Shown piece by piece: positions 1 to 12,161 of a stretch of DNA of 12,161 nt. The translations under genes and the position numbers were made by a program. The notes under the pieces were generated by a model. That model was not told where the DNA came from. It did no database searches and saw only the letters and a list, made by a program, of their open reading frames with translations. Each line of letters opens with the position of its first letter. Position 1 is the first letter of the stretch. The DNA comes from Promethearchaeia archaeon (lineage in GTDB: Archaea; Asgardarchaeota; Lokiarchaeia; Sigyniarchaeales; SOKP01): assembly GCA_046497275.1 (NCBI GenBank), contig JAWOFX010000077.1:1-12161 (forward strand), in the 5' to 3' direction.

Positions 1-639
1 CAGGTACTGCTGGACAAGGAGTGATTACATTAAAAAGGCTTATCGAATTTGCTGCTCAGAAAAGTGGAATTGAGTTAGTCCTTGGAAGTGAATCTTAATA
101 TTTAATTAAAATATGAGCACTCTATGCATGGTCTAGCTCAACGAGAAGGAGCAATAACAAGTCATACTCGATATCAGAAGAAAGCTTTCGAGGATCCTCG
201 TAAGAATTTACAATCACCTCTAATCTGTTATGGAGATGCAGATTTATATATTTGTTTTGAACCAGTGGAATCATTAAGAAGAGGAATTTTTGCTTCGAAC
301 AAAACGACATTTGTTTTAAATGAAAGGACAATTCCAGGGGTAATGATTACTGCTGATTTGGAAAACTATCCTTCCTTAGAACATATTAAAAAAATATTGA
401 AAAAAAACTCTAAAAATGTTTATTTCATGAACGCAACTCAATTAAGCTTAGATACTTTTGGTAATAATCAACAATTAAATATTATCATGTTGGGCTTCGC
501 TATTGCAACAGGTAAATTGCCTTTTATTAAGATTAAACATTATGAAGAAGTTATTAGGGAATGGTTGAGAGATCCAGAAAAAAATATTCGGGCTCTTCAT
601 TTAGGAATTGAGAAAGGAAACCAAATCATTTCTTCTTAA
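1..639 (+). CDS. iorB: Indolepyruvate:ferredoxin oxidoreductase beta subunit (2-oxoacid oxidoreductase gamma-like domain); 5'-partial and split into exon 1 (<1-92) and exon 2 (124-639)
   Basis: The frame starting at nt 3 reads GTAGQGVITLKRLIEFAAQKSGIELVLGSE, matching the IorB N-terminal GxGGQG motif. The ORF at 124 continues MHGLAQREGAITSHTR...SPLICYGDADLYICFEPVESLR...NIIMLG, matching the family pattern ExHGxAQRxGxxxSHxR...SPLI..G.AD....FEP.E.LR. The two parts are in different frames and join when 93-123 is removed. The start codon lies upstream of the window. Confidence 0.88.
93..123 (+). other. Putative 31-nt bulge-helix-bulge (tRNA-endonuclease-type) intron in iorB
   Basis: Insert TCTTAATATTTAATTAAAATATGAGCACTCT contains in-frame TAA (96-98) and shifts the frame. 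The central 4-bp helix AGUG(87-90)/CACU(118-121) is flanked by 3-nt bulges AAU(91-93) and CUA(122-124). Inner stem is 94-103/109-117; outer exon-exon stem is 70-86/125-141. Cleavage after the second nt of each bulge (92|93 and 123|124) gives GAA-ATG-CAT = E-M-H. Confidence 0.85.
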
Positions 640-5100: not shown

Positions 5101-5271
5101 ATGAGTAAGATTAATAAATGTTCATGCTGCGGAAGACCTATAACCCCATACGAATCCGCAGTTCATTTTCCGTGTCCCAATTGCGGAGATGTGACTATTT
5201 GGAGATGCGAGGCATGCCGAGAGCGTGGAAAGACGTATCGTTGTCTGAAATGTGAATTTGTAGGACCTTGA
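5101..5271 (+). CDS. HVO_2753/DUF1610-family zinc-finger protein (56 aa; absent from ORF track)
   Basis: Manual translation MSKINKCSCCGRPITPYESAVHFPCPNCGDVTIWRCEACRERGKTYRCLKCEFVGP*. It has four CxxC motifs, the family signatures F.CPNCG, I.RC..CR, Y.C..C.F.GP, and the usual position directly upstream of EF-1beta. Confidence 0.93.
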   Translation: MSKINKCSCCGRPITPYESAVHFPCPNCGDVTIWRCEACRERGKTYRCLKCEFVGP

Positions 5272-5337
5272 AATGATAAAACTTGTTAATTCAAATATAA
5301 TATTATAAAATTATGGAAATGAAAGAGGATATATAAA

Positions 5338-5604
5338 ATGGGTGAATATGTCGCATTAATTGATGTAATACCTGAAGAAATCGAGACTGATTTTAATAAT
5401 CTTGTTGATAAATTGGCTAAAACACTTCCCGAAACTTGTAAGATTGCCCATCATGAAATAATGCCAGTTGCTTTTGGATTGAAAAAAGTGAGATTACGAG
5501 TTAGATATCCTGAAGAGTGGGGCGGAACAGACAGGATTGAAGAGCTTTTTAAACAAGTAAATGGCCTTCAAGGAGTAGAAGGTATCGCGTTTTCTAAAGC
5601 ATAA
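5338..5604 (+). CDS. ef1b: Translation elongation factor aEF-1beta
   Basis: 88 aa with the PVAFGLKK signature and GGTDRIEE. SD-like GAGGA at 5325-5329. Confidence 0.95.
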   Translation: MGEYVALIDVIPEEIETDFNNLVDKLAKTLPETCKIAHHEIMPVAFGLKKVRLRVRYPEEWGGTDRIEELFKQVNGLQGVEGIAFSKA

Positions 5605-5984: not shown

Positions 5985-7838
5985 TCAACCGGTTCTTTTG
6001 AACAATTTATCCAACTCTTTAAAAGAAAAGAATTTCAAAGTTGGACGCCCATGAGCACAGTGAAAAGGATCATTGCAATGGGCTAACTCAATAATCAATT
6101 TTTGTATTGCTTGCAATGATAAATCATCTCCTCCACGAATACTTCTATGACACGCGAGATAATTAATGATCTCTTCCTTTACTTTTGAAAAACTTTTATC
6201 TTTCCCTATTTCTGTTATATCTGAAATGATATCTTTGATGATTATTGGGTTAATTTCTTTTTGAAACACCGTAGGTATTTCTCTTAAAATAAATGTATTT
6301 CCTCTAAAAGGTTCAAAAGTAAAACCTAATTTTTTAATCTCCTTCAAATTGTCTTCTAAAAATAACTTCTCGCTTGGATTAAGTTCAATTTTTAAAGGAG
6401 ATATTAATCTTTGTTTATGTTTATTAGATTGTTCATATTGCTGAATTAAAAATTCTTTATTAATCCTTTCAGATGCCGCATGTTGATCAAGAATAAAGAA
6501 CCCTTCTTCATTATTTTCATTAATTCCCTCTAAAATAATGTAAATATTATTGCTTAATTGACCAGTAAGAGATATAGGTCTTATTTTTGGGAAATTTTTT
6601 ATATTAATGTATTTCCCTCTAAAATAGCTATCTCCTTTTTGGTTTTTACTATCGAAGATTTGAGTATCTTCAAGATTTAATTGAATAGATGTAAGGTCTT
6701 TTGAGGGAAGTTTATGTTCATTATTAGTTATATCTTCAATTTCTATCAATTCTTCTTCTAAGATAGTTTCATGCTGGTGAAATTCTTTTTGAGAACCAAA
6801 ATCTTGTAAATTTGTAGATAAATATTTGCCCTCGTCTTTAATAAATTTATTTTCAACAAAATCTCTTATAATATTATATACTTTATTATAAACGAATTCT
6901 TCATCTTCAAATCTAACTCTCAATTTTTTTGGATGGATATTAAAATCAATAACAGAAGGATCCAAATCGAGATTTAACACAAAAAATGGATTTCTACCAA
7001 TCATTAAAACTCCTTCATATGCTTCCTTAACAGCATCGAACAATAAGCTGCTCTTAATGAATCTTTTGTTAATGAAAAAGGTGGAATATTGTCTTCCTTT
7101 TTTTGCCGTTTTAGGATGTCCTAAAAATCCCGATAATTTAAACCTATATCCCTTCTCTTCATAATGGATACTTTCACACAATTGAGCTATTTTTTTTCCA
7201 TAAATATGAAAAATTGTCGTTTGTAAATCGTTTTGAAGTGGGCAATTTATCATAGTTAATTCATTATGGGTGTAGATAAAGTGTAAATGCGGATAGGCTA
7301 AAGCATAACGTTGAATTATATCTGTTATATGTCCTAATTCAGTTGAATCTGTTTTGAGAAATTTTTGCCTCGCAGGGGTATTATAAAATAAATTACTTAC
7401 TCTAATATTAGTCCCAACAGGTGCTGATATTTCTCTTTCATTTACAATTTTTCTCCCTTCAATGATTAATTGTTTTCCAAATTTTTCCTCTTCAATTCTT
7501 GAGATTATATCTATTTTACTTACTGCTGCGATGCTTGCTAAAGCTTCTCCACGGAAACCTAACGTTGAAAGGATCTCTAAATCTTCAATACCTCTTATCT
7601 TACTACTCGTATGACTTTCAAAAGCAACACTTAAGTCATCAGAAGGAATTCCTATTCCATTATCGATAACTTGAATAGATACTTTACCTGCTTTTCGGAT
7701 ATTAATCCTTATCTCAGTAGCTTCAGCATCTATACTATTTTCTATTAATTCTTTAACAACGTTTGCCGGTCTCTCGACAACTTCACCCGCTGCTATCTTA
7801 TCAGCATTTTTTATAGGTTTTATTTTCCTTCTGTTCAT
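5985..7838 (-). CDS. mutL: DNA mismatch repair endonuclease MutL
   Basis: 617 aa. GHKL ATPase motifs IAAGEVVERPANVVKELIENSIDA, DNGIGI, TLGFRGEALASI, GTNIRVSNLFYNTPARQKFL. C-terminal endonuclease motifs DQHAASERINKE (6453-6488), ACHRSI and CAHGRP (6042-6059). Confidence 0.97.
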   Translation of the reverse strand: MNRRKIKPIKNADKIAAGEVVERPANVVKELIENSIDAEATEIRINIRKAGKVSIQVIDNGIGIPSDDLSVAFESHTSSKIRGIEDLEILSTLGFRGEALASIAAVSKIDIISRIEEEKFGKQLIIEGRKIVNEREISAPVGTNIRVSNLFYNTPARQKFLKTDSTELGHITDIIQRYALAYPHLHFIYTHNELTMINCPLQNDLQTTIFHIYGKKIAQLCESIHYEEKGYRFKLSGFLGHPKTAKKGRQYSTFFINKRFIKSSLLFDAVKEAYEGVLMIGRNPFFVLNLDLDPSVIDFNIHPKKLRVRFEDEEFVYNKVYNIIRDFVENKFIKDEGKYLSTNLQDFGSQKEFHQHETILEEELIEIEDITNNEHKLPSKDLTSIQLNLEDTQIFDSKNQKGDSYFRGKYINIKNFPKIRPISLTGQLSNNIYIILEGINENNEEGFFILDQHAASERINKEFLIQQYEQSNKHKQRLISPLKIELNPSEKLFLEDNLKEIKKLGFTFEPFRGNTFILREIPTVFQKEINPIIIKDIISDITEIGKDKSFSKVKEEIINYLACHRSIRGGDDLSLQAIQKLIIELAHCNDPFHCAHGRPTLKFFSFKELDKLFKRTG

Positions 7839-7938
7839 GCTGTGTTCAAATTTTTTTGATTTTAAAAAATTAATCTATAGTTAAGGAACTCTAAATGGAT
7901 AATATTTAAATCAAGAGAGGGCTATAAAATTTTATTAT

Positions 7939-8589
7939 TTATGAGGAATTATGATTTCTGGATAGTATAAAAAACCGCCCAGTTGATTTCATATAATTTG
8001 TATACTCTTGAGGAAAGATTTCTAATAGTTCCTTCTCTTCATTACGAGCTTGTATATATAATCCAATCCCTCCAATGATCAACAATCCCAGAAGCAACCA
8101 ATCTTGGATTACAAATAAAAATCCAAAACAGATTAAATAGAATGATAAATAGATTGGATGTCGAATTTTAGAATATACACCTGTCTTTACAAGTTTCCTT
8201 TTCTGAGTTTTTCCATCTATTGGATATTCCCAGTAAACTCCCAATTCTCTATAGGCAATATTCAACGTAATATTTCCACCAGCTATTAAAGTAATTCCAA
8301 TTACTTGAAAAGTTTCGCCCAAGAAAATAAAATTTATTCGGGGAATATATATAATGAATTCCTCGTAGAAAAATATATTAAGACATGCAATGACAATAAA
8401 TATATTCAGTACAATAATTCCAAACTTTCCTATTCTATTGAATCCTTGGGGGTCATTTTTATTGATTTCTCTGTTTTTATCTTCATTAATCTTACTACGT
8501 TTTTTAGTTAAAATTATGAAGGTAATATTATACCCGAAAAATAGGAAACTGAGTATGATGATAACTCGAATTATTGTTGGACTAAACAT
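7939..8589 (-). CDS. Isoprenylcysteine carboxyl methyltransferase (ICMT/PEMT) family membrane methyltransferase
   Basis: 216 aa, multi-TM, with LVKTGVYSKIRHPIY and EEKELLEIFPQEYTNYMKSTGRF family motifs. Confidence 0.88.
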   Translation of the reverse strand: MFSPTIIRVIIILSFLFFGYNITFIILTKKRSKINEDKNREINKNDPQGFNRIGKFGIIVLNIFIVIACLNIFFYEEFIIYIPRINFIFLGETFQVIGITLIAGGNITLNIAYRELGVYWEYPIDGKTQKRKLVKTGVYSKIRHPIYLSFYLICFGFLFVIQDWLLLGLLIIGGIGLYIQARNEEKELLEIFPQEYTNYMKSTGRFFILSRNHNSS

Positions 8590-8786
8590 AAATGATTAAA
8601 CATATTCAAAAATTTATTCTTTATTAATTGGATAAACCAAGTTTAATTTATACTTAATCTATTTTAATTGGGTTAAATAATCCATTTATACCTTTAGAAT
8701 GAGGATTTCTTACAAAAACTAAAAATCTGGAGTGATCCAACAATATTTTCAACTCTCAAATTAAATTATTCCCAAATTTTAATCAT

Positions 8787-8805
8787 AAATAAAAAATAAA
8801 AAAAA
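8787..8805 (-). terminator. Candidate oligo-U terminator downstream of the second hydrolase gene
   Basis: Plus-strand A-run AAATAAAAAATAAAAAAAA gives a long T-tract on the minus strand 17-35 nt after the stop at 8822. The low GC background makes this weak evidence. Confidence 0.4.
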
Positions 8806-8821
8806 GTAATTTTTTTAAATT

Positions 8822-10729
8822 TTATAAAGTTGCTCCTATTACCCCACCAACAGATAAGAACCACACAGTAATGATAGATGCCATTATTGAGCCAAGATAA
8901 ATCCTGCCTGTTTTTCGATAAAAGTACACCATCAAGTAATATAATAATACCGAAAGAGGAAGCAGACTCATTAGTTGTAATGGCATTATAGGATTAAAAC
9001 CTTCTATTAACCATCCAGCAAATGTGTAATTCGATCTAAACAATGGTGGAAGATATTGAACCAGAAAAACTATAAGTAGTCCCGTGAGCATTGCAAAACA
9101 AGCTTTGAGCCACCAGACAATCTGTGTTTTGGCTGGAGAGCCTAATTCTTTTTGGCGAATTTGTCCAAATAAAAATATTCCCCCAACAACCAAGAAAAAC
9201 GGCATAACAATTGGTAAGTAGAGTAGGAAGAGATAAAATCGTTCGAGAGTGAAAGTTTTCATAAATGTCCAGAAAATTCTGAACTCGATATTGAACCATG
9301 TTTGAAAGATGCTCACCAGTAGATACATCCATCCGAATAAAATTCCCGCTACTACAACCGTTTTTCCAAATTTTTGCCAACCTGATCTATCTTTGAGGTT
9401 AGAAACAACTGATTCTTTGCTATATAATACACCTAAATCATATGGTGCTATTCCTCCTCTGTCCATTTTCCAAATCACAAAATACCATATTGAGACCAAA
9501 CCAAAACTAATAGCTGCTGAAATTAGATAGAAACCCAAAAAGTTATTCAACATGCCTAATGCGAATATATCTGGGAAACCCCAAGCTTGATCTGCAGTGG
9601 AAAAGAAGATGTAAATAACTCCTCCGATAGCGGCATTAATAAATGCAAATACCCACCACATCCATTTTTTATCCGTAACAACTCTTTCTGGCATGGGTTG
9701 TGAAACTTCCGCAAAATATTTCAATTGTATCAGTAATTTAAACAGAAATACCATAGAAACAATAGTCATAATTAAGGCTAAGCCACTAAATAATTCGGTA
9801 TAAATGTATGTTTGACCTAAAGCAGCAACTGTTGCCCATGCTTGAGCTTCACTATCTCCTTTCAATGCTTGCAACATCCACGCAACTGATTCTTTTTGAC
9901 AACTTAAATCTGCCGTTAAGCCTGGGTGTGTGCATCCTTTCGCGTAATGTTCTCTGTAGGCATTTCCAAGTGAAAAATCGCCATAGGTGGTATCTACTTG
10001 CCCTGGTGTACCTGGGGCTAAACCAGCATTTATACCAGTAACTATTAATCCTTGTTGATATACTTCATCCACTGTCATATCTTCGGTATAATTTCCTGGC
10101 CCAACAATACTCAGATCAACAGTATACCATTCCTCGTATTCTGCCCATATATGTAAAACATTTCTATGAACAAAGAAATTTTGTAATATTGGTGGAAAAG
10201 TTTGGAAAATAGAAGCATTAGGGGCATATACATCACTGGGAAGAGGACTAAGTTGGAAATAAAATGTAGAAATGTATCCCATTGAATGTCCATAAACTCC
10301 CATACCTCCATCAACAAAAGCTTGCCTTGCTAACCATATATAAGCGGTTTGAGTACCTGCAATCTGGCTACTGGTAGAAAATTCCCCTTCAGAATCTCCA
10401 TGTCCTAACTGGTCGATCGTCAATACAACAAATCCTGCTCGTGCTAATTCTAAAGCAGTACCTCGCTGAACATCCTTATCATTATTATATCCATGTACAC
10501 CAAGAATTCCAGGAGCTGGATTTAAACTATTTACACCTTTAGGTCGATATAATTTACCCACTATTTGGGAACCATCAGTATGTGTTATGGATACTTCTTG
10601 AACATCAATAGTACCAAAGTTTGTCTGAAAACCATAGGCGAGAAGACCGAACACAAAAATTAAAGCAACTACTATAATGAAATAAGTTTTGTTATTTTTA
10701 TATTTATCAAGAGAAACCAAATTTATCAC
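8822..10729 (-). CDS. Membrane-anchored alpha/beta-fold hydrolase with multi-TM C-terminal region
   Basis: 635 aa. N-terminal TM, PGILGVHGY, GFVVLTIDQLGHGDS, nucleophile elbow GHSMG, candidate catalytic His in THPGLT, then many TM helices. The start may instead be TTG at 10720, with AAGTGAT as SD. Confidence 0.85.
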   Translation of the reverse strand: MINLVSLDKYKNNKTYFIIVVALIFVFGLLAYGFQTNFGTIDVQEVSITHTDGSQIVGKLYRPKGVNSLNPAPGILGVHGYNNDKDVQRGTALELARAGFVVLTIDQLGHGDSEGEFSTSSQIAGTQTAYIWLARQAFVDGGMGVYGHSMGYISTFYFQLSPLPSDVYAPNASIFQTFPPILQNFFVHRNVLHIWAEYEEWYTVDLSIVGPGNYTEDMTVDEVYQQGLIVTGINAGLAPGTPGQVDTTYGDFSLGNAYREHYAKGCTHPGLTADLSCQKESVAWMLQALKGDSEAQAWATVAALGQTYIYTELFSGLALIMTIVSMVFLFKLLIQLKYFAEVSQPMPERVVTDKKWMWWVFAFINAAIGGVIYIFFSTADQAWGFPDIFALGMLNNFLGFYLISAAISFGLVSIWYFVIWKMDRGGIAPYDLGVLYSKESVVSNLKDRSGWQKFGKTVVVAGILFGWMYLLVSIFQTWFNIEFRIFWTFMKTFTLERFYLFLLYLPIVMPFFLVVGGIFLFGQIRQKELGSPAKTQIVWWLKACFAMLTGLLIVFLVQYLPPLFRSNYTFAGWLIEGFNPIMPLQLMSLLPLSVLLYYLMVYFYRKTGRIYLGSIMASIITVWFLSVGGVIGATL

Positions 10730-10935
10730 TTTTTTGTATATAGATTTTATTTTTAAATAGACTTAAAATGATTCCAAAATAAAATTTGATTACATACTAT
10801 AAAAAACTTTCTCTGTTGATACATAATCTCAAATCTGTGAATATTACTTACGTAAAATGGCAATTGGGAAGAAAAAAGAAAATATAGAAAACCGAGTCAA
10901 AATAATATTCTTGAGAATTTCTTCCGATATTTCAA

Positions 10936-12161
10936 TTAGTTATTTAACATTTCCTTTATATCAATGAATTTTCTCATAGCTTCTACAGGAGTCAAAGAAT
11001 TAACATCTGTTTCTTGAATGATTTTAATAATTTCCTTGATCTCATCATCAACAATTGGTTCACTTTTTATAAGTGGTTTAAAGAATGTGGTTTGCACAGT
11101 TTTTTTCTTCTCATTTTGTTTATTTGTTTGTGAAGAATAAATCTCCTTTTTGGCATTTAGTTGCTTTATTTCGTGTTCTAAGCTTTCAATTCGTTTTAAC
11201 TTCTTTTTTATTTCTTTTTCCTTTTTATTTAGGCTTTCATCACATCTCTTTAAATCTTCATTTTTGTTATTCAATTGAGTGTTAATCGTTTCAAGTTGTT
11301 TTTCTTTGTTACTTATTAGTTTATCATGAAATTTTCCAGCAGCACTTTTATTGTTATTATTTTTTTCGATAGTTGCTTCGAAAGGATCTTTTTGCTCAAT
11401 TTTTTCCAAAATCTGAAAAGCTTTAATTATTACATCATCAGGCAATCCAGCTAATCTTGCAACATGAATTCCATAGGATTTATCTGTACTACCTGGTTTT
11501 AATTTACGAACGAAATTTATACTTCCATCATCGTTTTCAATTATATCTAAATGATAATTTTGAATACGTGGTAATTCTATTTCTGTTAATTGATGATAAT
11601 GAGTGCTAAATAAAGTCTTAGCTTTTAATTCATGCAATTTTTCTAGAGTTGCGATTGCAATACTTTGACCATCACTCGTACTTGTCCCTCTTCCAAGCTC
11701 ATCAATGATTACTAAACTTTTTGGAGTTGCATAATTTAGAATTTTAGCTGTTTCAGTCATTTCTATCATAAAAGTGGACAATTTTCTAGCTAAATCGTCA
11801 GAGGCGCCTATGCGTGTGAAAATCTGATCGATAATGCCTATATGTGCAGAGGATGCAGGCACAAAACACCCCATTTGAGCAATAAGGCAGATTAAAGCTA
11901 CTTGACGCAAAAAAGTAGATTTTCCTGACATATTTGGCCCCGTAATTATTAAGATTTGCTCTTTTTCAGAGTCAATATAGCAATCATTTGGGATAAATCT
12001 TTCTGTTAAATCCATTTGCTCAACAACGGGGTGTCTTCCATCTTTGATAATGATTTTATCGCTGTTTTTTTCCATAATAGGTCGACAATAATTGAAATTC
12101 TCAGAAATTTCTGCAAAACAAGCATATACATCTATAAAAGCTATATTATTTGCAGTTTCTA
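10936..12161 (-). CDS. mutS: DNA mismatch repair protein MutS (MutS1 type), 5'-partial
   Basis: The frame is open to the window edge (ETANNIAFIDVYACFAEISENFNYCRPI precedes the listed Met). Motifs GRHPVVE, Walker A GPNMSGKSTFLRQ, FTRIGASDDL, STFMIEM, DELGRGTST, SYGIHVARLAGLP and the C-terminal DVNSLTPVEAM. Confidence 0.97.
   Translation of the reverse strand, partial: ETANNIAFIDVYACFAEISENFNYCRPIMEKNSDKIIIKDGRHPVVEQMDLTERFIPNDCYIDSEKEQILIITGPNMSGKSTFLRQVALICLIAQMGCFVPASSAHIGIIDQIFTRIGASDDLARKLSTFMIEMTETAKILNYATPKSLVIIDELGRGTSTSDGQSIAIATLEKLHELKAKTLFSTHYHQLTEIELPRIQNYHLDIIENDDGSINFVRKLKPGSTDKSYGIHVARLAGLPDDVIIKAFQILEKIEQKDPFEATIEKNNNNKSAAGKFHDKLISNKEKQLETINTQLNNKNEDLKRCDESLNKKEKEIKKKLKRIESLEHEIKQLNAKKEIYSSQTNKQNEKKKTVQTTFFKPLIKSEPIVDDEIKEIIKIIQETDVNSLTPVEAMRKFIDIKEMLNN

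What the first reader, a model, noticed from the sequence alone, without database searches (positions are those of the whole stretch)
70..141. Candidate tRNA-endonuclease-type (BHB) intron interrupting the metabolic gene iorB
Seen in sequence: the IorB motif GSE-x-HGLAQR is interrupted by 31 nt (93-123, only 6 G/C) that add a TAA stop and a frameshift. The RNA can form hBHBh': central helix A87-G88-U89-G90 with C118-A119-C120-U121, 3-nt bulges AAU (91-93) and CUA (122-124), an inner stem of 9 pairs (94-103/109-117, one G-U, one bulged A, 5-nt loop) and an outer stem with 14 of 17 positions paired (70-86/125-141). Established: archaeal EndA cuts BHB motifs after the second nt of each bulge and RtcB ligates; short BHB introns in mRNA are best known from crenarchaeal cbf5. 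Applying that rule gives cuts at 92|93 and 123|124, which restores both the frame and the E-x-H spacing (GSE-MHG). Inference: this is a spliced protein-coding intron in a central-metabolism gene of a probable Asgard archaeon, which would be mis-annotated as a truncated 171-aa ORF.
Basis: partly seen in the sequence, partly recalled or inferred. Interest (0 to 1): 0.93.

Follow-up and report, generated by a model that had tools for sequence, protein, structure and literature searches.

The report
tRNA-type mini-intron splitting Asgard iorB
An Asgard archaeon's gene for a subunit of an amino-acid-degrading enzyme is interrupted by a 31-base insert with exactly the RNA shape that the tRNA-splicing enzyme cuts. 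Related species keep that shape through compensating mutations, so the mRNA very probably has to be spliced, something published for only one other archaeal gene.

Summary
Window 93-123 is a 31-nt AT-rich insert with an in-frame TAA and a frameshift. It splits an IorB-like gene between ...LVLGSE and MHGLAQREG....

- **Fold:** the minimum-energy fold of 66-145 is exactly the proposed hBHBh' motif.
- **Junction:** 37 intron-less orthologs in the same family and 5 in neighbouring families read GSE|MHG (or GAE|xHG) with no gap. That is exactly where cuts after the second nucleotide of each bulge would join the exons.
- **Conservation:** 21 of 58 family orthologs carry a 30/31-nt insert at this site, in 18 distinct sequences. 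91.7% of base-pair cells are kept and 10 pairs show compensatory changes, one of them in the exon-intron central helix.
- **Selection:** both exons are under purifying selection (pN/pS about 0.2).
- **Not an artefact:** a separate JGI metagenome contig carries the identical insert.
- **Machinery:** the genome encodes a catalytic and a non-catalytic EndA subunit and two RtcB ligases.
- **Context:** at least three other genes in this genome (CSP, TFS, UbiA-type) are split the same way.
- **Annotation:** public gene calls truncate this gene to 171 aa.

The scan has noted similar Asgard mRNA introns on other DNA before, but not this one.

The parts
3..92 (+). Exon 1 of the IorB-like gene, cut by the contig start. 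It covers the last 30 of 44 codons and ends ...LVLGSE.
   Evidence: Open frame 3..98. It is 80% identical to residues 15-44 of the intron-less same-genus ortholog. The full 44-codon exon 1 is seen on the near-identical contig L102.
70..86 (+). 5' strand of the outer helix h. It is exon sequence and pairs with 125-141.
   Evidence: MFE fold. 14 of 17 positions are paired. Intron-bearing alleles average 13.5/17 pairs against 9.9/17 in intron-less alleles. An exon-exon pair covaries UA<->CG.
87..90 (+). 5' strand of the central 4-bp helix H (AGUG, exon). It pairs with 118-121 (CACU, intron).
   Evidence: The U89-A119 pair becomes C-G in 6 of 18 distinct sequences.
91..93 (+). 5' bulge (AAU). The predicted EndA cut is 92|93.
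   Evidence: The cut rule (between the 2nd and 3rd bulge residues) is as stated in PMC2738675. The position matches the junction in intron-less alleles.
93..123 (+). The 31-nt BHB intron. It carries an in-frame TAA at 96-98 and shifts the frame.
   Evidence: The borders are unambiguous because the flanking bases differ.
94..117 (+). Inner stem-loop h': 9 pairs, bulged A98, loop 104-108.
   Evidence: 8 of 9 pairs show compensatory changes among 18 sequences.
118..121 (+). 3' strand of the central helix H (CACU, intron).
122..124 (+). 3' bulge (CUA). The predicted EndA cut is 123|124.
125..141 (+). 3' strand of the outer helix h (exon 2 sequence).
124..639 (+). Exon 2 of the IorB-like gene: 171 codons plus the stop codon.
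   Evidence: ORF. Pfam POR PF01558 matches profile positions 29-173, so the domain is N-terminally truncated. NCBIfam IorB models match from profile position 36-42 onward.

Best explanation
Window 93-123 is a genuine archaeal bulge-helix-bulge (BHB) intron inside the coding sequence of an IorB-like gene. The gene encodes the beta subunit of an indolepyruvate-type 2-oxoacid:ferredoxin oxidoreductase.

**Proposed mechanism**
1. The iorAB transcript folds locally into an hBHBh' motif. The outer helix is built from the two exons. The 4-bp central helix pairs exon 1 with the 3' end of the intron. The inner hairpin is entirely intron.
2. The host's heteromeric (alpha-beta)2 splicing endonuclease EndA cuts after the second nucleotide of each 3-nt bulge, at 92|93 and 123|124.
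3. RtcB joins the exons and probably circularises the 31-nt intron.
4. The spliced mRNA encodes a colinear 215-aa protein with the GSEMHGLAQREG motif restored.
5. Unspliced RNA can give only a 45-residue N-terminal peptide and, at best, a 171-aa fragment that lacks the GxGGQG segment.

**Shown here:** the structure, its covariation, the exact agreement of predicted cuts with the orthologous junction, purifying selection on both exons, and the presence of the enzymes.

**Inferred:** cleavage, ligation and the need for them. The intron probably arose in or at the base of this Asgard family and has been lost precisely several times.
For: 1. **Fold.** The MFE fold of the own sequence is the canonical hBHBh'. 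5 of 7 relatives folded alone give the same motif.
2. **Junction.** Intron-less orthologs read GSE|MHG or GAE|xHG with no gap at the predicted junction: 37 in the family and 5 in neighbouring families. The BLAST alignment to the same-genus ortholog is contiguous, 44|45.
3. **Covariation.**
   - 21 of 58 family orthologs carry a 30/31-nt insert at the same site. All 21 are stop-free after precise removal.
   - On 18 distinct sequences, 91.7% of pair cells are standard pairs, against at most 47.5% when the partners are slid.
   - 10 pairs show double changes: 8 of the 9 inner-stem pairs, plus the central-helix pair UA<->CG in 6 sequences. 0 of 500 shuffles reach the covariation score.
   - RNAalifold adds an exon-exon compensatory pair.
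   - Length variation (30 vs 31 nt) lies only in the inner stem. The bulges and central helix have no indels.
4. **Exon helix.** Exon-exon complementarity is higher where the intron is present: 13.5 vs 9.9 of 17 pairs.
5. **Selection.** Among intron-bearing alleles the median pN/pS is 0.21. Exon 1 has pN 0.07 and pS 0.61.
6. **Independent assembly.** JGI contig L102, whose exon 2 protein is 95% identical, has the identical insert and shows iorA, a 144-nt spacer, a 44-codon exon 1, the intron and exon 2.
7. **Enzymes.**
   - The genome has two EndA-domain ORFs.
   - One resembles the A. pernix catalytic subunit and keeps the His. The other has Val in place of the catalytic His.
   - The genome also has two RtcB genes.
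   - Asgard EndA is reported as (alpha-beta)2 with the L1 loop (PMC5829648).
8. **Other split genes.** The same genome has 30-nt BHB-shaped inserts in CSP, TFS and a UbiA-family gene. Pfam profile coordinates continue across each junction. These inserts lie inside codons, so only RNA joining can give a functional product.
9. **Cut rule.** The rule and its agreement with exon borders match the experimentally spliced cbf5 case (PMC2738675).
Against: - **No RNA-level evidence.**
  - The spliced junction was not found in JGI metagenome contigs.
  - No full-length protein at least 95% identical to a truncated one exists among the top 120 database clusters.
- **ATG after the junction.**
  - The codon after the junction is ATG in 21 of 21 intron-bearing alleles but in only 22 of 37 intron-less family alleles. 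Independent translation of exon 2 therefore cannot be excluded.
  - The U of that ATG also makes the first outer-helix pair, and ATG is the state in all 5 outgroup orthologs.
- **Relaxed central helices.** Three of the 18 distinct sequences have one or two mismatches in the central helix (G008, G087, G079).
- **Redundancy.** The genome has two other iorAB operons (about 32% identical). The cognate iorA is not in this assembly, so this copy is not shown to be essential.
- **Single-sequence statistics.** The fold z-score for one sequence is modest (-2.79; -1.39 in a 161-nt context).
Confidence: 0.85

Rival explanations
1. The gene is split and works without splicing. The insert is a tolerated hairpin insertion. 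Exon 1 is translated to a peptide of about 45 aa that stops in the insert. Exon 2 is translated on its own from the ATG at 124. The two pieces assemble non-covalently, or the 171-aa piece suffices.
For: An ATG stands exactly at the start of exon 2 in all 21 insert-bearing alleles, but in only 22 of 37 insert-less family alleles. Every insert has an in-frame stop. Public gene callers do call a 45-aa gene and a 171-aa gene.
Against: - It does not explain why the insert keeps exactly a 4-bp helix with exon 1, two 3-nt bulges and an exon-exon outer helix through compensatory changes. Nor does it explain why exon complementarity is higher in insert-bearing alleles.
- The ATG is ancestral: it is present in all 5 outgroup orthologs. 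Its U is needed for the first outer pair.
- No conserved Shine-Dalgarno-like motif precedes it, by direct reading of the 18 sequences.
- The 171-aa piece lacks the GxGGQG segment of the POR domain, profile positions 1-28.
- In the same genome, equivalent inserts sit inside codons of CSP, TFS and UbiA, where restart is impossible.
Confidence: 0.07
2. The motif is an EndA-recognised site used mainly for regulation. The mRNA is either cleaved without efficient ligation, which lowers IorB expression, or spliced only under some conditions, as with HAC1/XBP1. Splicing would then be a switch rather than a constitutive maturation step.
For: The substrate geometry is the same as under the best explanation. 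The genome has two other iorAB operons that could supply basal activity. The insert is patchily distributed among close relatives.
Against: Nothing in the sequence suggests a sensor or an alternative fold. Purifying selection on both exons shows that the joined product matters. Similar inserts lie in housekeeping genes such as TFS and CSP, which points to constitutive removal.
Confidence: 0.05
3. The insert is an artefact or a decaying gene: an assembly or sequencing error, or a recent disabling insertion in a pseudogene.
For: The window starts inside the gene, and the cognate iorA is missing from the MAG.
Against: - The identical insert lies on an independent JGI contig.
- Homologous inserts are present in 20 other species-level genomes from different assemblies.
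- pN/pS is about 0.2 in both exons, and no other stop or frameshift occurs in any of the 21 alleles.
- The 31-mer is not a repeated element in the genome.
Confidence: 0.02

Closest known systems
BHB intron in the cbf5 (pseudouridine synthase) pre-mRNA of Crenarchaeota (Watanabe 2002; Yoshinari 2006; Yokobori 2009, PMC2738675)
   Same: - It is a short intron inside a protein-coding sequence.
- It is defined by a bulge-helix-bulge motif.
- The cuts fall between the 2nd and 3rd bulge residues and coincide with the exon borders.
- The host has a heteromeric EndA.
- The distribution is lineage-specific, with secondary precise losses.
   Different: - The gene is different (a metabolic oxidoreductase subunit rather than an RNA-modification enzyme), and so is the phylum (Asgard rather than Thermoproteota). 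The introns are not homologous.
- Most cbf5 motifs are described as unconventional or relaxed BHB. This one is a strict hBHBh' in most alleles.
- cbf5 splicing was shown by cDNA and in vitro cleavage. Here it is inferred.
- This intron is one of several of a uniform size of about 30 nt in the same genome.
Archaeal pre-tRNA and pre-rRNA BHB introns and processing stems (EndA/RtcB pathway)
   Same: The recognition motif and predicted chemistry are the same. The enzymes are encoded in the genome. This genome's tRNA genes are themselves often interrupted: ARAGORN calls introns in 13 of 25.
   Different: The substrate is an mRNA. The outer helix must be built from codons, so protein coding and RNA pairing constrain the same bases.
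IRE1/RtcB splicing of HAC1/XBP1 mRNA in eukaryotes
   Same: It is spliceosome-independent. A protein endonuclease cuts at RNA structure, RtcB-type ligation follows (in metazoa), and removal of a short intron changes the reading frame.
   Different: The endonuclease is different (IRE1 rather than EndA/TSEN), and so is the motif (twin stem-loops rather than BHB). That system is regulated by stress. No sign of regulation was seen here.
IorB, indolepyruvate:ferredoxin oxidoreductase beta subunit (TIGR03334 / NF005323)
   Same: It has the POR domain. Its best NCBIfam matches are all IorB models. An IOR-alpha gene lies directly upstream in relatives.
   Different: Scores are far below the equivalog cut-offs (111 vs 238 bits for the intact same-genus ortholog). 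The substrate specificity is therefore not established, so I call it IorB-like.

Membership tests
Archaeal BHB (splicing-endonuclease) intron | [quoted passage not shown] | tested here: met
   MFE fold. The alignment of 18 sequences has no indels in the bulges or central helix, and 91.7% of central-helix cells are paired.
Archaeal BHB (splicing-endonuclease) intron | Flanking helices h (exon) and h' (intron), the strict hBHBh' form | tested here: met
   The outer helix has 14/17 positions paired and the inner stem has 9 pairs. 8 of 9 inner pairs covary.
Archaeal BHB (splicing-endonuclease) intron | Cuts between the 2nd and 3rd bulge residues reproduce the true exon junction | tested here: met
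   The predicted cuts 92|93 and 123|124 give GSE|MHG, identical to the ungapped intron-less orthologs. The rule is as stated in PMC2738675.
Archaeal BHB (splicing-endonuclease) intron | The host encodes EndA and an RNA ligase (RtcB) | tested here: met
   PF01974 is found twice (one ORF keeps the catalytic His, the other has His->Val) and PF01139 twice.
Archaeal BHB (splicing-endonuclease) intron | Excision and exon ligation observed in RNA (cDNA junction, circular intron) | not testable with these tools
Indirect searches for a spliced form found nothing.
Archaeal BHB (splicing-endonuclease) intron | Cleavage by purified EndA at the predicted sites | not testable with these tools
   This is a bench experiment.
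IorB (indolepyruvate:ferredoxin oxidoreductase beta subunit) | POR/gamma-type domain (PF01558) | tested here: met
   Exon 2 scores 52.6 bits and matches profile positions 29-173. The intact ortholog scores 67.2 bits and matches 1-172.
IorB (indolepyruvate:ferredoxin oxidoreductase beta subunit) | Score above the NCBIfam equivalog cut-off | tested here: not met
   The best score is 111 bits against a cut-off of 238 (NF005323), and 109 against 205.8 (TIGR03334), for the intact same-genus ortholog. Hence 'IorB-like'.
IorB (indolepyruvate:ferredoxin oxidoreductase beta subunit) | Encoded directly downstream of an IOR alpha (TPP/Fer4) subunit gene | tested here: met
   An IOR-alpha homolog lies upstream in L007, in L102 and in most relatives, with or without the intron. 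It is not visible in the window itself because the contig starts inside the gene.
Group I / group II intron, intein, programmed bypass | A ribozyme core of hundreds of nt; or an in-frame protein-splicing domain; or matching take-off and landing codons | tested here: not met
   The insert is only 30-31 nt, has in-frame stops and shifts the frame. There is no Rfam match. The codon before ATG 124 does not match the GAA take-off codon, by direct reading.

The most novel reading that the evidence does not exclude
The iorB intron is one instance of a general habit. In this Asgard (Lokiarchaeia-type) family the tRNA-splicing machinery would routinely splice messenger RNAs. Many genes per genome would carry uniform mini-introns of about 30 nt that are gained and precisely lost on short evolutionary time scales, and whose removal forces exon codons to co-evolve with RNA pairing. 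That would be an intron-exon gene structure, independent of the spliceosome, in the closest prokaryotic relatives of eukaryotes.
Probability: 0.6. Interest if true: 0.9.

Novelty: new member of a known kind. Interest (0 to 1): 0.78.

Why it matters
- **Rarity.** In the papers I could search, endonuclease-dependent introns inside archaeal coding sequences are described only for cbf5 of Crenarchaeota. This adds a metabolic gene in Asgard archaea, supported by unusually clean comparative evidence: intron-less alleles, 18 covarying alleles and exon-exon covariation.
- **Annotation.** Gene callers and public databases truncate this gene. 33 of the top 120 protein clusters are 190 aa or shorter, and 29 of them begin at MHGLAQ. 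Metabolic reconstructions of Asgard MAGs will therefore miscount such genes as fragments or pseudogenes.
- **Biology.** Together with the other split genes verified in the same genome, it suggests that mRNA splicing by EndA/RtcB is a regular part of gene expression in this lineage. That bears on how intron-containing genes and transcription-translation coupling coexisted before eukaryotes. It is directly testable by RT-PCR on enrichment cultures or by metatranscriptomes.

Tried and rejected
- **RNA evidence.**
  - An exact search for the spliced junction (32 nt) in JGI metagenome contigs gave 0 hits.
  - Among the top 120 database clusters, no truncated protein has a full-length partner at 95% identity or more that could be a cDNA product. 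The best pair is 94%.
- **Genome-wide census.**
  - I scanned the genome for BHB geometry and tested whether excision merges ORFs.
  - The counts were no higher than for decoy splice offsets: 1357 vs 1444-1535, and 121 vs 114-121 under stricter structure rules.
  - Hairpins at ordinary gene boundaries swamp the signal, so this scan says nothing about how many introns exist.
  - Individual candidates had to be judged by motif and Pfam continuity instead.
- **Calibrating the cut rule on this genome's tRNA introns.** ARAGORN's intron borders were too imprecise. I relied on the published rule.
- **Repeat or mobile element.** blastn-short of the 31-mer found no second copy, only short AT-rich matches.
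- **Known RNA family.** There is no Rfam match at the site.
- **Bypassing, intein, group I/II intron.** All were rejected on length, stops and lack of take-off/landing codons.
- **Single origin vs many.** The 510-nt gene tree is too poorly resolved. It shows 11 state changes, of which only 2 are forced by well-supported branches.

Full report
**What is in the sequence.** The window is a whole contig (G000:C140) that begins inside a gene.
- Frame 3..98 reads ...QKSGIELVLGSES and stops at TAA 96-98.
- In another frame, ATG 124..639 reads MHGLAQREGAITSH... for 171 codons.
- Exon 2 carries a Pfam POR domain that starts only at profile position 29. Its NCBIfam IorB matches start at profile position 36-42. 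So it is an N-terminally truncated domain.
- The 31 nt between the two frames (93-123) have 6 G/C.

| Element | Positions |
|---|---|
| Outer helix | 70-86 / 125-141 |
| Central 4-bp helix | A87-G90 / C118-U121 |
| 3-nt bulges | 91-93 and 122-124 |
| Inner hairpin | 94-117 |

The motif persists in a 161-nt context. I shuffled the 31 nt in place. A perfect central helix plus at least 9 inner pairs appeared in 32 of 200,000 trials.

**The junction is defined independently by intron-less alleles.**
- A six-frame search of related genomes and retrieval of the 5' regions gave 58 orthologs in the same family and 5 in neighbouring families.
- 37 family orthologs and all 5 outgroup orthologs are uninterrupted. 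They read GSE|MHG, or GAE|xHG, with no gap exactly where cuts at 92|93 and 123|124 would join the exons.
- The same-genus ortholog aligns contiguously, residue 44 to exon 1 and residue 45 to exon 2.
- The rule that EndA cuts between the second and third bulge residues, and its use to validate exon borders, is stated for the cbf5 intron in PMC2738675.
- The borders here are unambiguous because the bases flanking each cut differ.

**The insert is conserved as a structure.**
- 21 of the 58 family orthologs carry a 30- or 31-nt insert at this very site, in 18 distinct sequences.
- Most fold on their own into the same hBHBh'.
- On a covariance-model alignment of the 18 sequences, 91.7% of pair cells are standard pairs, against at most 47.5% when partners are slid. 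Ten pairs show changes on both sides, and no shuffle reaches the covariation score.
- Eight of the nine inner-stem pairs covary.
- The central-helix pair between the third base of the Ser codon (exon) and the intron switches U-A to C-G in six sequences.
- RNAalifold also finds an exon-exon pair switching U-A to C-G in five sequences.
- The one-base length difference lies in the inner stem. The bulges and central helix have no indels.
- Three of the 18 distinct sequences have one or two mismatches in the central helix (G008, G087, G079). A heteromeric EndA with broad specificity would be expected to tolerate this (PMC5829648).

**The exons behave as one living gene.**
- All 21 interrupted alleles are stop-free after precise removal.
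- Among them the median pN/pS is 0.21, with exon 1 at pN 0.07 and pS 0.61.
- Exon-exon complementarity in the outer helix averages 13.5 of 17 pairs where the intron is present (minimum 12) and 9.9 where it is absent.
- A JGI metagenome contig (L102), whose exon 2 protein is 95% identical, carries the identical insert. It shows the full locus: iorA (646 aa), a 144-nt spacer, a 44-codon exon 1 beginning MIFKEHDIIN..., the intron, and exon 2. The spliced product would be 215 aa, the length of the intact orthologs.
- Assembly error and pseudogene are therefore excluded.

**Identity and host.**
- The intact same-genus ortholog matches only IorB models best, but far below their cut-offs (111 vs 238 bits). 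An IOR-alpha gene precedes it there and in most relatives. I therefore call the gene IorB-like.
- The own genome has two further iorAB operons at about 32% identity. The cognate iorA is not in the assembly.
- The nearest public records are Promethearchaeota/Lokiarchaeota MAGs, which are Asgard archaea.
- The genome encodes two EndA-domain proteins. One is most like the catalytic subunit of the Aeropyrum pernix heterotetramer and keeps the catalytic His. The other has Val at that position.
- The genome also encodes two RtcB ligases.

**Distribution.**
- The intron is absent from the five outgroup orthologs and patchy within the family. For example, it is in 1 of 5 genomes in the window's own genus, 4 of 4 in another genus and 7 of 18 in a third.
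- The short gene tree needs 11 state changes, of which only 2 are forced by well-supported branches.
- I therefore infer one gain at or near the base of the family followed by repeated precise losses, as proposed for cbf5. Lateral exchange of alleles is not excluded.

**Context in the same genome.** Earlier first-reader notes of this scan list many candidate mRNA BHB introns in this genome. I checked four of them.

| Gene | Insert | Pfam evidence |
|---|---|---|
| Cold-shock protein | 30 nt | Exon 2 starts at CSD profile position 13 |
| TFS | 30 nt | Exon 1 ends at Zn-ribbon profile position 25 of 39 |
| UbiA-family | 30 nt | Profile 3-48, then 53-231 |
| cdhA | 31 nt | Only exon 2 matches a profile (weaker) |

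The first three inserts lie inside codons, so only RNA joining can rescue those genes. This makes splicing of iorB more credible by analogy. My own crude genome-wide scan could not count such introns, because decoy splice offsets scored as high. Follow-up agents of this scan have reported similar mini-introns in other Asgard genomes. None concerns iorB.

**What is not shown.** No RNA data could be reached. One observation keeps a rival alive. The codon after the junction is ATG in all 21 intron-bearing alleles but in only 22 of 37 intron-less family alleles, so exon 2 could in principle be translated alone. However, ATG is also the outgroup state, and its U forms the first outer-helix pair next to the bulge. 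The restart idea also does not explain the conserved BHB geometry.

**Verdict.**
- This is a real, conserved BHB intron in an Asgard mRNA, and I put the probability at about 0.85.
- It is a new member of a kind that the searched literature documents only for cbf5.
- Public annotation truncates the gene: 33 of the top 120 clusters are 190 aa or shorter, and 29 of them start at MHGLAQ.

Noticed in passing
G000:C20:17894-17923 (L098); G000:C130:8745-8774 (L100); G000:C111:36426-36455 minus strand (L101); G000:C46:5373-5403 (L099): Four other genes of the same genome are split by 30-31-nt BHB-shaped inserts: a cold-shock protein, TFS, a UbiA-family prenyltransferase and cdhA. Pfam profile coordinates continue across the junction for the first three, and those inserts lie inside codons. 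For cdhA only exon 2 hits a profile.
   Followed up: partly
whole genome G000: ARAGORN finds only 25 tRNA genes, 13 of them with called introns (several of 29-31 nt), in a genome estimated 98.9% complete. This suggests many heavily interrupted tRNA genes that standard tools miss.
   Followed up: no
window 1-3 (contig start); G000:C65 and G000:C85: The contig starts inside iorB exon 1, and the cognate iorA is not found anywhere in the assembly. Only two paralogous iorAB operons (about 32% identical) are present. In L102 and most relatives iorA lies directly upstream. In one genus (G020, G008) no iorA lies within 1.5 kb upstream.
   Followed up: partly
window 124-126 and the same codon in orthologs: The first codon of exon 2 is ATG in 21 of 21 intron-bearing alleles. 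In intron-less family alleles it varies: ATG 22, CAT 5, CAA 4, GAT 3, TCT 3. Both the need for U125 to pair with A86 and a possible restart codon could explain this.
   Followed up: partly
public protein clusters P0001-P0120: 33 of the top 120 homologous clusters are 190 aa or shorter, and 29 of them begin exactly at MHGLAQ. Interrupted alleles are therefore deposited as truncated '2-oxoacid:acceptor oxidoreductase family protein' entries. On L102 a separate 45-aa gene is called for exon 1.
   Followed up: yes
window 5101-5604 and 5985-12159: The rest of the window looks ordinary. It holds a small Zn-ribbon ORF next to an aEF-1beta-like ORF, MutL, an ICMT/PEMT-like methyltransferase, two alpha/beta-hydrolase genes and a MutS gene cut by the contig end. 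I found no second interruption.
   Followed up: partly
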